From a virus (lineage: Duplodnaviria > Heunggongvirae > Uroviricota > Caudoviricetes): a DNA stretch of 27,146 bases. A program made the translations under genes and the position numbers. Positions 6,597-7,676 of this stretch are shown in pieces. Location of the stretch: the IMG/VR virus record IMGVR_UViG_2531839485_000010. One strand, 5' to 3'. The notes beneath the pieces were generated by a model. It had not been told where the DNA came from, did no database searches, and saw nothing but the letters and a program-made list of their open reading frames with translations. How positions within the stretch are numbered: the first letter of the stretch is position 1; each line of letters starts with the position of its first letter.

Positions 6597-7583
6597 TTAG
6601 ATTTCTGGTTTTATTCTTCCAAAAACCTTTTCTATTCCTTTTTCGTATTCTTCTCTTGTCTCGCTCATCGCTGCGACACCAAGAAGCTTACCGATATGCT
6701 GACGCAAAGCCTTGACACCAATTTCAGAAAGGAACAGGTGCAACTTATCAGATTGTTTTCCGTTCTCGTCTCGGCTGGCTCGAATCTGTTCAAGGATTTT
6801 ACCTTTACTCTTTGCTAGCGGAGTGTATATCTGCATGTTGGTTAGTTGCCCAAAACGAATTGGACGTCCTTTCTCTGGCCTGTTCAGGCCGTACAGTCGA
6901 TACCACTCCTCATATAGCTCATCTGGAAATTCCTTTTCATACTGCCTCGCCTCTTCACGAACAAAGGCCTTGAAGGAATCAATAACCTCCTGTACTTCAG
7001 GTCGATATCCTGCAATAGCATAACCAAGTCCTTTAAGCCCTGCTTTCATTGATGCGGTAACAAGTCTTTGGGCAAGGCTGGCAGATTTTGATCTTGAAGG
7101 CGGTAGTGCGCCAGCTCGATCGGCATTAATCATTGCTGTGGCTATATCACCAATAAGGGCAATATCGTAACCGTGAGCCTCATCAGCGAGTGGATTTGGG
7201 GCTGAGTTTGGGACCGGACTTCTCCATTGAAAAATAAGAGGTTTTTTGAATTTTTCTAGCAGAAATGGATCAACAAAATCAGCCATATAATTCGTATTTA
7301 GAAAACGGTCTACATCCCTACCATGCTCACCGATTCCTAGTAATTTAGCCAGACCAGTTTTACTAACTACAACCGTTTTATCATTATCATCAAGTACGTA
7401 ACATTCTGCATCAATGCCGAAATCATCAATGAAGTTACCCTTTCTGATCGCTCTTAGTGGCTTACCTTCCCATCGTTTTGCCGCTGCTTTCTTTGCTATT
7501 TCAGAACGCTGCTCTTTAGTCAGCGACTTTGCGCGAGCGATACCGCCCTTAGCTTTCCCTTCGCCACTTTTCTTTTCAGTCAT
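6597..7583 (-). CDS. Hypothetical soluble protein (about 328 aa) with a Lys/Ala-rich basic N-terminus; accessory (moron) gene of unknown function
   Basis: Long ORF with coding-like composition. Probable start is the internal ATG at 7583 (MTEKKSGEGKAKGGIARAKSLTKEQRSEIAKKAAAKRW...) rather than 7658. I tentatively recall similar proteins annotated as P63C-domain proteins, but cannot confirm this without a search. Confidence 0.6.
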   Translation of the reverse strand: MTEKKSGEGKAKGGIARAKSLTKEQRSEIAKKAAAKRWEGKPLRAIRKGNFIDDFGIDAECYVLDDNDKTVVVSKTGLAKLLGIGEHGRDVDRFLNTNYMADFVDPFLLEKFKKPLIFQWRSPVPNSAPNPLADEAHGYDIALIGDIATAMINADRAGALPPSRSKSASLAQRLVTASMKAGLKGLGYAIAGYRPEVQEVIDSFKAFVREEARQYEKEFPDELYEEWYRLYGLNRPEKGRPIRFGQLTNMQIYTPLAKSKGKILEQIRASRDENGKQSDKLHLFLSEIGVKALRQHIGKLLGVAAMSETREEYEKGIEKVFGRIKPEI

Positions 7584-7676
7584 AATGCAAGCACCTTTGT
7601 TGTGATGTATGCTTGCATTATATGCACTGTACACACATACAAGCAAGCATAAAACCAAAACAAAATGCTTGCATTA
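7583..7676. promoter_or_regulatory. Operator-like repeat array between divergent accessory genes: four copies of the TAATGCAAGCA / TGCTTGCATTA motif in alternating orientation
   Basis: ATAATGCAAGCAC at 7583-7595; ATGCTTGCATTA at 7609-7620 and again exactly at 7665-7676; degenerate AAGCAAGCATAA at 7641-7652. Confidence 0.5.

What the first reader, a model, noticed from the sequence alone, without database searches (positions are those of the whole stretch)
7583..7676. Four-copy inverted/direct repeat array (TAATGCAAGCA / TGCTTGCATTA) between divergent accessory genes
The 12-mer ATGCTTGCATTA occurs exactly twice (7609-7620 and 7665-7676), with inverted or degenerate partners at 7583-7595 and 7641-7652. 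Two inverted pairs about 56 bp apart in a 150-bp divergent promoter region is the classic layout of cooperative operator sites. No repressor is annotated next to it, so the binding protein could be one of the cassette proteins or the prophage repressor.
Basis: seen in the sequence. Interest (0 to 1): 0.55.

Follow-up and report, generated by a model that had tools for sequence, protein, structure and literature searches.

The report
Conserved operator array of P63C gene
The four repeats are real and form a conserved set of likely protein-binding sites over the promoter and start codon of the neighbouring 328-aa prophage gene of unknown function; the same sites accompany that gene family from Salmonella phages to Firmicutes, so the gene product most likely switches off its own gene.

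Summary
TGCTTGCATTA occurs exactly three times in the 27-kb window, all within 94 bp (0.02 expected), with a degenerate fourth copy. The sites alternate in orientation, with 8-mer centres 24, 32 and 24 bp apart.

The array does not belong to the divergent gene pair. It is the 5' control region of the minus-strand 328-aa P63C-domain gene (6597-7583).
- Site B abuts a perfect TATAAT.
- Site C covers the -35.
- Site A covers the Shine-Dalgarno sequence and start codon.
- Site D lies at about -60.

In 52 distinct upstream regions of P63C homologues (58-100% identity) the 7-nt cores are nearly invariant, the spacing is kept and the spacers have diverged. The same array sits upstream of homologues at 25-48% identity in Alpha-, Beta- and Gammaproteobacteria and a Firmicute. 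It also occurs in phages without mnt or arc. A roughly 30%-identical subfamily carries a different repeat (ACGTGCA) in the same place.

Best reading: a promoter-occluding operator array for negative autoregulation by the P63C protein. This is inferred, not shown. The prophage-repressor, LexA, host-factor and RNA-hairpin readings are disfavoured. No description of the pair was found. Interest is moderate.

The parts
7583..7593 (.). Site A (TAATGCAAGCA; 8-mer core TGCAAGCA at 7586-7593). It overlaps the start codon (7583-7581, minus strand) and part of the Shine-Dalgarno sequence AAGGTG (7592-7597, minus strand). Predicted position +16 to +23.
   Evidence: In the homologues this site reads gGTGCTTGCAt and lies 2-4 nt before the ATG; the core is kept in 47-52 of 52 regions.
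7610..7620 (.). Site B (TGCTTGCATTA; 8-mer at 7610-7617). It overlaps by one base the minus-strand -10 hexamer TATAAT (reverse complement of 7617-7622) and covers the predicted transcription start near 7610.
   Evidence: In the 52 distinct homologous regions, the six hexamer positions before the core carry T51 A49 T47 A35 A48 T52 (counts out of 52), and the core is 51-52 of 52.
7642..7650 (.). Site C, the degenerate copy (AGCAAGCAT; core GCAAGCA at 7643-7649). It overlaps the minus-strand -35 candidate TTGCTT (reverse complement of 7641-7646), 18 nt from the -10.
   Evidence: The core TGCTTGC (gene orientation) is kept in 51-52 of 52 homologous regions.
7666..7676 (.). Site D (TGCTTGCATTA; 8-mer at 7666-7673), predicted at -63 to -56 of the P63C promoter. 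It lies about 64 bp upstream of the GTG of the divergent 129-aa gene.
   Evidence: Core positions are kept in 47-52 of 52 homologous regions.
7617..7622 (-). Predicted sigma-70 -10 hexamer TATAAT of the P63C gene promoter. The transcription start is inferred near 7610, giving a 27-nt leader.
   Evidence: Read from the sequence. Its position next to site B is conserved. The generic promoter scan did not call it, because the -35 matches only 3 of 6.
6597..7583 (-). The 328-aa P63C-domain protein gene, the gene the array belongs to and the proposed binder.
   Evidence: Pfam PF10546, E = 9e-14. PHROG 2384, function unknown. 1421 homologues found. Structure models.
6567..6590 (-). Intrinsic terminator (AACCCACC-GTCA-GGTGGGTT followed by TTTT) just after the P63C stop codon. 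It closes the cassette as a promoter-gene-terminator 'moron'.
7740..8129 (+). Divergent 129-aa secreted or lipoprotein-like gene at the sieA position. It is a neighbour, not part of the array's unit. Site D would lie near its -35 if TATCAT (7702-7707) is its -10, which is speculative.
   Evidence: PHROG 2651, function unknown. The same gene occurs in phage Emek without the array.

Best explanation
The four repeats are operator sites of the promoter of the minus-strand P63C-domain gene. That gene forms a self-contained prophage 'moron': promoter plus operators at 7583-7676, gene at 6597-7583, terminator at 6567-6590.

Each site is a short pseudo-palindrome, (A)TGC-AA-GCA(T). The 8-mer centres lie at about -59.5, -35.5, -3.5 and +19.5 relative to the inferred transcription start near 7610. 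A protein bound to sites C and B would therefore occlude the -35 and the -10/+1. Site A covers the SD and ATG region of the DNA. Site D is an upstream auxiliary site for cooperative binding.

The most likely binder is the P63C protein itself, giving negative autoregulation.

Shown here: the repeats, their placement relative to a conserved -10-like hexamer and the start codon, their conservation, and their exclusive linkage to P63C genes across phyla.

Inferred: the transcription start, the binding, the identity of the binder and the sign of regulation.
For: 1. Statistics. There are 3 exact 11-mers within 94 bp against 0.02 expected.

2. Phylogenetic footprint.
- In 52 distinct upstream regions of homologues at 58-100% identity, the 7-nt cores are invariant at almost every position.
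- Flanking and spacer positions are variable.
- Start-to-start spacing is 23/33/23 in the large majority.
- L036/L015 share only 74.5% DNA identity over the 110 aligned bases and 58% protein identity. They still keep all four sites in register with no gaps.

3. Promoter geometry. A TATAAT-like hexamer directly abuts site B in 47-52 of 52 regions. Site A lies 2-4 nt before the ATG.

4. Linkage.
- Cores occur at 15.4 per kb in the 215 nt around the gene start and 0.13 per kb elsewhere in the same 94 loci, which is the chance level.
- 39 of 40 IMG/VR hits to the A-B palindrome lie next to a P63C gene.
- 7 of 14 hits in one-genome-per-species bacteria lie next to P63C homologues of 25-48% identity. 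These are an Alphaproteobacteria MAG, Rhizomicrobium, Acinetobacter, Nitrosospira, Sulfuricella, Rhodocyclales and Eubacteriales, each with 2-4 sites.

5. Context independence.
- In L036 the cassette sits among siphovirus tail genes, after a terminator.
- Most loci have a terminator upstream rather than a divergent gene.
- Homologues in hosts of 44-72% GC keep the sites.

6. Co-variation. A subfamily about 30% identical, with a different second N-terminal helix, carries a different repeat (ACGTGCA/TGCACGT) at the same position of a homologous promoter and leader.

Against: - No binding or expression data exist, and no transcription start has been mapped.
- The generic promoter scan found no sigma-70 site here, because the -35 (TTGCTT) matches only 3 of 6.
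- The operator sequence is almost unchanged between proteins only 25-50% identical. That is unusual for phage repressor-operator pairs. It would need a very conserved reading head, although the N-terminal 75 residues are indeed the most conserved part.
- One phage locus (L006) has the A-B palindrome in front of an unrelated 216-aa gene, with no P63C gene in the fetched 3.7 kb.
- If the whole array were transcribed, it would fold into a very stable hairpin.
Confidence: 0.6

Rival explanations
1. The sites are operators of the P63C promoter, but they are bound by a different trans-acting factor: a host regulator, the prophage C2-type repressor, Mnt or Arc, or another phage protein.
For: No experiment ties the P63C protein to DNA. 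The window also encodes Mnt- and Arc-type ribbon-helix-helix proteins nearby. Sites A, B and D contain CTTGCATT, which from memory is 7 of 8 of the CytR octamer GTTGCATT. The L006 palindrome precedes an unrelated gene.
Against: - The array follows the P63C gene into phages without mnt, arc or the immI region, such as L036 among siphovirus tail genes.
- It also follows the gene into Alpha-, Beta- and Gammaproteobacteria and a Firmicute. No phage-specific or enterobacterial host factor is shared by all of these.
- The invariant positions are TGC..GCA, not the CytR TTGCATT part. Site C lacks the latter.
- No extra sites occur elsewhere in the 27-kb window or in the flanks of 94 loci.
Confidence: 0.13
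2. The repeats act in RNA. Hairpins A/B and C/D, or one long D/A plus C/B hairpin, in the 5' leader or in read-through late transcripts would mask the SD and start codon, or control RNA stability or processing.
For: A and B form a perfect 12-bp inverted repeat, with the SD in the loop and the AUG at the foot of the stem. The 121-nt region folds at -52.3 kcal/mol, z = -6.6. The cassette lies inside the late operon of a P22-like phage, so read-through transcripts are plausible.
Against: - The conserved -10 hexamer abuts site B, so the gene's own transcript should start inside B and lack the 5' arm. The resulting leader is unstructured (-2.7 kcal/mol, z = +0.6).
- All 11 B/A and 9 D/C core variants among 58 regions change one arm only, with no compensation.
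- Spacer complementarity is near the shuffled level, 0.42 against 0.34 +/- 0.13.
- Each site is itself a TGC-N2-GCA pseudo-palindrome, which an RNA stem does not need.
- There is no Rfam match beyond generic hairpin noise far below the gathering scores.
Confidence: 0.1
3. The sites are the primary cis target of the P63C protein's main activity, for example a nucleation, partition-like, replication or exclusion function. They sit next to its gene as parS does next to parB, and promoter control is incidental.
For: The function of the P63C protein is unknown. The site sequence is extremely conserved across phyla. That pattern is more typical of a functional DNA target than of a fast-evolving phage operator.
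Against: The fixed register of the sites with the -35, the -10 and the ATG is kept in lineages with very different GC content. That is what transcription control predicts and other functions do not require. The cassette is embedded as a terminator-bounded moron in unrelated phages, not at replication or packaging loci.
Confidence: 0.12
4. A LexA (SOS) operator controls the cassette through the near-LexA box CTGTACACACATACAA (7627-7642) between sites B and C.
For: The sequence matches 12 of 16 positions of CTGTATATATATACAG (consensus from memory). It lies in the promoter spacer. ATACAGTG recurs in many enterobacterial loci.
Against: The terminal CAG is replaced by CAA on the plus strand, which reads TTG on the gene strand. 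The box is absent in L036, L119, L110 and all non-enterobacterial loci, whereas the four sites persist.
Confidence: 0.04

Closest known systems
Phage P22 immI operators (Omnt and Oarc at the divergent Pant/Pmnt promoters)
   Same: The genomic neighbourhood is the same: between gene 16/sieA and the tailspike of a P22-like phage. Both use short symmetric operators overlapping a promoter, and the regulator is encoded next to the operator and autoregulated.
   Different: The sequence is unrelated and there are four sites instead of one operator per repressor. The adjacent protein is a 328-aa P63C-domain protein, not a ribbon-helix-helix protein. The array also occurs in phages and bacteria that lack mnt and arc.
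Lambda-type multipartite operators (OR1-3/OL1-3) and other cooperative multi-site autoregulators
   Same: Both have several pseudo-palindromic sites spread over the -35, the -10 and flanking DNA of the regulator's own promoter. Both keep a conserved spacing that suggests cooperative binding.
   Different: The sites here are 8-10 bp, not 17 bp. They alternate in orientation and lie 24/32/24 bp apart. One site lies over the SD and ATG. No HTH of the Cro/CI type is detectable in the protein.
Plasmid Rep or ParB-type proteins whose binding sites lie beside or over their own promoter
   Same: A DNA-binding protein gene is tightly linked to repeated copies of its site, and inverted repeats over the promoter give autorepression.
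   Different: There are no direct-repeat iterons, no replication or partition genes nearby, and the cassette is a phage moron.
CytR octamer boxes (GTTGCATT)
   Same: Sites A, B and D contain CTTGCATT (comparison from memory).
   Different: The invariant bases are TGC-N2-GCA. Site C lacks GCATT. No flanking CRP sites were seen by eye (no tool scan was run). The motif is conserved with P63C genes in phyla that lack CytR.

Membership tests
Autoregulatory operator array over a sigma-70 promoter | Repeated, (pseudo)palindromic sites far beyond chance | tested here: met
   There are 3 exact 11-mers plus 1 degenerate copy in 94 bp, against 0.02 expected. Each site has the form TGC-N2-GCA.
Autoregulatory operator array over a sigma-70 promoter | Sites overlap the core promoter elements or the transcription start | tested here: inconclusive
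   A perfect TATAAT abuts site B, and the hexamer is conserved in 47-52 of 52 homologous regions. The -35 candidate TTGCTT lies inside site C. However, the generic scan calls no promoter and no transcription start data exist.
Autoregulatory operator array over a sigma-70 promoter | Sites conserved while neighbouring non-coding DNA diverges (phylogenetic footprint) | tested here: met
   The cores are nearly invariant, the spacers are variable and the spacing is kept.
Autoregulatory operator array over a sigma-70 promoter | The adjacent gene product is a sequence-specific DNA-binding protein | tested here: inconclusive
Autoregulatory operator array over a sigma-70 promoter | Binding and repression demonstrated | not testable with these tools
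   This needs EMSA or footprinting and reporter assays.
P22 immI Mnt/Arc operators | The operator co-occurs with mnt or arc and is bound by them | tested here: not met
   The array with the P63C gene is found in a siphovirus tail-gene context (L036) and in bacterial genomes of several phyla. Those loci hold no mnt or arc gene next to it. The motif is also absent from the mnt-arc region of the window.
Structured cis-regulatory RNA (leader hairpin or Rfam family) | Compensatory base changes that keep the stem | tested here: not met
   All 20 core variants are one-sided. The spacers are not complementary beyond the shuffled level.
Structured cis-regulatory RNA (leader hairpin or Rfam family) | Match to a curated RNA family | tested here: not met
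   Only miRNA-precursor hairpin noise was found, at most 30 bits against gathering scores of 79-119.
LexA (SOS) box | CTGT-N8-ACAG conserved at the promoter | tested here: not met
   The window has CTGT-N8-ACAA at 7627-7642. It is not conserved in L036 or in non-enterobacterial loci.
Phage moron (autonomous promoter-gene-terminator insert) | Own promoter, own terminator, and presence at different positions in unrelated phages | tested here: met
   The terminator is at 6567-6590 and the promoter is inferred. The cassette lies in the P22-like immI region here, after tail genes in L036, and behind terminators or tRNA-like DNA in other loci.

The most novel reading that the evidence does not exclude
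P63C-domain proteins form a previously unrecognised family of sequence-specific DNA-binding regulators. They have no fold match in the PDB. Their 8-bp operator, TGCAAGCA, has stayed essentially unchanged with the gene from Firmicutes to Proteobacteria. The tightly self-repressed moron would then be a dose-sensitive effector carried by many prophages, for example one with an exclusion or defence role. In some lineages small partner proteins that carry the same GGxARA...RW motif could modulate the switch.
Probability: 0.2. Interest if true: 0.65.

Novelty: new member of a known kind. Interest (0 to 1): 0.5.

Why it matters
P63C (PF10546) is a widespread prophage and bacterial protein family: 1421 homologues were found here, and 102 of 5426 complete E. 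coli genomes carry this control region. The papers searched attribute no function to it.

A conserved, gene-linked four-site operator gives the family its first concrete, testable molecular property. That property is sequence-specific DNA binding at TGCAAGCA with self-repression. It also provides a defined 94-bp fragment for binding, reporter and structural work.

The result also shows that the control region between gene 16 and immI of P22-like phages is a portable moron module, not part of the phage's own immunity circuitry.

Tried and rejected
- Prophage repressor, Mnt or Arc as the binder. Rejected, because the array occurs without them in unrelated phages and in several phyla.
- LexA box at 7627-7642. 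It has one critical mismatch and is not conserved.
- CRP, sigma-54, Fur and CytR motifs. These were checked by eye against remembered consensus sequences. Only CytR shows a partial resemblance (7 of 8), and it does not match the invariant positions.
- Known RNA families. None were found.
- RNA hairpin covariation. None was found.
- Generic sigma-70 scan. It made no call in 6400-8300. The promoter assignment therefore rests on the conserved TATAAT next to site B.
- Function of the P63C protein.
  - No PADLOC hit and no NCBIfam hit.
  - No PDB sequence hit.
  - Foldseek against the PDB gave nothing with E below 0.8.
  - The literature searches found nothing relevant.
  - The 2002 paper by Iyer, Koonin and Aravind that defined the domain is not held.
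- L006. I looked for a P63C gene on its 88-kb contig through a homologue scan, and the contig was not among the hits. The lone palindrome there stays unexplained. About 0.15 chance matches were expected in that scan by my own estimate.
- Small proteins that share the N-terminal motif. They have no TGCAAGCA sites upstream in the DNA held.

Full report
**Setting**

The window is part of a P22-like (Lederbergvirus) prophage of Salmonella type.
- The 1.7 kb around the finding matches Salmonella and E. coli P22-like phages in mosaic pieces.
- A 100%-identical copy of the 328-aa protein is named from Salmonella enterica.

The late operon runs on the minus strand. The local genes are as follows:

| Coordinates | Strand | Gene |
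|---|---|---|
| 8154-10064 | - | gp16-type DNA-transfer gene |
| 7740-8129 | + | 129-aa gene with a signal peptide, GTG start, at the sieA position |
| 6597-7583 | - | 328-aa gene, the finding's neighbour |
| 6368-6553 and 6184-6393 | - and + | small ORFs |
| 5939-6187 | + | Mnt-like ribbon-helix-helix gene |
| 4509-5261 | - | ant |
| 2475-4298 | - | tailspike |

The 328-aa protein carries a P63C domain (PF10546, E = 9e-14).

**The observation**

The sequence is as described.
- TAATGCAAGCA lies at 7583-7593 (site A).
- Its reverse complement TGCTTGCATTA lies at 7610-7620 (site B) and 7666-7676 (site D).
- A degenerate copy, AGCAAGCAT, lies at 7642-7650 (site C).
- A and B are a perfect 12-nt inverted repeat with a 16-nt spacer. 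The 12-mer ATGCTTGCATTA recurs 56 bp apart.
- The exact 11-mer occurs three times in 27 kb, all here, against 0.02 expected. None of 100 shuffles had three.
- Relaxed matches are not enriched elsewhere in the window, and TGCAAGCA occurs nowhere else in it.

Read as 8-mers, the sites alternate in orientation and their centres lie 24, 32 and 24 bp apart.

**Anatomy relative to the genes**

On the minus strand the start codon of the P63C gene (7583-7581) touches site A. The Shine-Dalgarno sequence AAGGTG (7592-7597) overlaps it.

The reverse complement of 7617-7622 is a perfect TATAAT, and its last T is the first base of site B. Eighteen nucleotides upstream, TTGCTT (reverse complement of 7641-7646) lies inside site C.

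With a start near 7610, the sites span about -63/-56 (D), -39/-32 (C), -7/+1 (B) and +16/+23 (A). This is inference from the sequence. The generic promoter scan calls nothing here because the -35 matches only 3 of 6.

An intrinsic terminator (6567-6590, minus strand) follows the stop codon. The unit therefore looks like a promoter-gene-terminator moron.

**Comparative evidence: close and mid-range relatives**

A scan of IMG/VR for the A-B palindrome returned 40 loci. Thirty-nine align to the window's control region.

Among the near-identical ones, substitutions fall in the spacers. The divergent pair L036/L015 has only 74.5% DNA identity over the 110 aligned bases and 58% protein identity. It keeps all four sites in register without gaps while the spacers are scrambled. 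Its far side is a terminator, not a divergent gene. L036 is a siphovirus-type context, with tail terminator, Big_2 tail tube and DUF6246 genes.

A homologue-driven scan returned 80 more loci at 58-100% identity.
- Every distinct upstream region shows the same four cores in the same order relative to the ATG, mostly behind a rho-independent terminator.
- Over 52 distinct regions the 7-nt cores are invariant at almost every position. The hexamer before site B carries T51 A49 T47 A35 A48 T52 (counts out of 52).
- Start-to-start spacing is 23/33/23 in the large majority, while flanks and spacers vary.
- Seven loci carry a clean deletion between the direct repeats D and B, which leaves two sites.

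**Comparative evidence: distant relatives**

Homologues at about 50% identity, from contigs of 44-72% GC, still carry three or four TGCAAGCA/TGCTTGCA sites before the start codon. Variants such as TGCTAGCA and TGCACGCA show that the essential pattern is TGC-N2-GCA.

A scan of one genome per bacterial species for the palindrome returned 14 loci.
- Seven lie directly upstream of P63C homologues of 25-48% identity. These are an Alphaproteobacteria MAG, Rhizomicrobium, Acinetobacter, Nitrosospira, Sulfuricella, Rhodocyclales and Eubacteriales. The four best-preserved (L175, L180, L183, L184) have 8-mer spacing of about 23-24/30-32/23-27.
- The other seven are lone, mostly terminator-like palindromes.

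Over 94 distinct loci, the cores occur at 15.4 per kb in the 215 nt around the gene start. Elsewhere they occur at 0.13 per kb, the chance level.

A subfamily about 30% identical has a different second N-terminal helix. At the same place of a recognisably homologous promoter and leader it carries a different repeat, ACGTGCA/TGCACGT.

**What this means**

The array belongs to the P63C gene, not to the divergent gene pair. The same 129-aa gene occurs in phage Emek with a different upstream region that lacks the motif. A 64-bp leader segment (7677-7739) is shared by many different genes at the sieA position.

The unit is found without mnt, arc or any P22 immunity genes, and in several phyla. A phage-specific repressor or an enterobacterial host factor is therefore an unlikely binder. 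The simplest explanation is that the gene product binds its own operator.

Sites over the -35 and the -10/+1 predict repression by promoter occlusion. Sites D and A would add cooperativity.

**The protein**

AlphaFold models are confident for residues 41-120 and for much of the helical C-terminal part.

This is consistent with DNA binding but is not proof. The most conserved stretch is the N-terminus, GGxARAxxLxxxxRxxIAxxAAxxRW followed by HKGNF...CYVL.

No function is recorded in PHROGs, PADLOC, NCBIfam, PDB sequences or the papers searched.

**The RNA alternative**

Transcribed whole, the region would fold into a long hairpin (-52.3 kcal/mol, z = -6.6). Several observations argue against an RNA role.
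- The conserved -10 places the start inside site B, and the resulting leader is unstructured.
- All 20 core variants among 58 regions are one-sided.
- Spacer complementarity is close to shuffled controls.
- Each site is itself a pseudo-palindrome.
- Rfam gives only hairpin noise.

Read-through late transcripts could still form the structure, so a secondary RNA effect is not excluded.

**Other candidates**

The near-LexA box at 7627-7642 is lineage-specific and has a critical mismatch. The partial resemblance to the CytR octamer, recalled from memory, does not fit the invariant positions or the taxonomic spread.

**Verdict**

The repeat array is real and highly non-random. It is very probably a functional protein-binding operator array of the P63C moron promoter, and negative autoregulation by the P63C protein is the best-supported mechanism (about 0.6).

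It is a new operator-regulator pair of a familiar kind. Its interest lies in the cross-phylum conservation of the site and in the first functional handle it gives on an uncharacterised, widespread prophage gene family.

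Noticed in passing
L183:7647-7868 (-), L185:152-412 (+), L131 (minus strand; motif starts at reverse-complement position 1397): Small ORFs of 73-86 aa end in the same GGKARAxxLTPEERxEIAxKAAxxRW motif that opens the P63C proteins. They lie convergent to the P63C gene and just downstream of it in three unrelated lineages. None occurs in the window. They have no TGCAAGCA sites upstream in the DNA held. They may be partners or competitors of the P63C protein.
   Followed up: partly
L006:1749-1785 (IMGVR_UViG_3300005670_000014, 88.8-kb contig): A TTTTAATGCAAGCAT-N13-ATGCTTGCATTAAAA palindrome sits between a terminator and an unrelated 216-aa gene with no Pfam match. No P63C gene lies in the 3.7 kb held. 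It is either a chance match (about 0.15 expected by my own estimate) or a second target of a P63C-type regulator encoded elsewhere on the contig.
   Followed up: partly
window 7627-7642: A near-LexA box, CTGTACACACATACAA, lies in the promoter spacer between sites B and C. ATACAGTG recurs in many enterobacterial copies but is absent from divergent ones.
   Followed up: partly
L095, L097, L098, L101-L104 (IMG/VR): Seven loci carry a precise deletion between the direct repeats D and B. It leaves only one inverted pair and removes the TATTAT hexamer. These are natural two-site variants, useful for testing the role of the outer sites.
   Followed up: no
window 7677-7739: A 64-bp segment upstream of the 129-aa gene includes TATCATCTGGTATCCTG and the AAGGAGG ribosome-binding site. 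It is conserved in front of many different genes at the sieA position. Its downstream part, from about 7686, recurs in phage Emek, and the last 34 nt (7709-7742) are identical in P22. It looks like a shared recombination and expression module for swapping accessory genes.
   Followed up: no
window 6567-6590 (-): An intrinsic terminator, AACCCACC-GTCA-GGTGGGTT followed by TTTT, directly follows the P63C stop codon. The simple terminator scan missed it.
   Followed up: yes
L123 (E. coli CP165539.1, 2214820-2218812): This P63C homologue is only 52% identical overall. It nevertheless has an almost identical N-terminus and an identical control region. That suggests recombination within the gene just downstream of the conserved N-terminal module.
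   Followed up: no
L183:5648-6535 (-); L175, about 70-85 nt upstream of the array at 4496-4533: In L183, an ORF transcribed away from the array starts with MNKLSNEKRAQIL. From memory this resembles a transposase-like helix-turn-helix N-terminus. L175 shows a similar ...gtttgttcat start at the corresponding position. The pattern hints that some P63C cassettes sit next to mobile elements.
   Followed up: no
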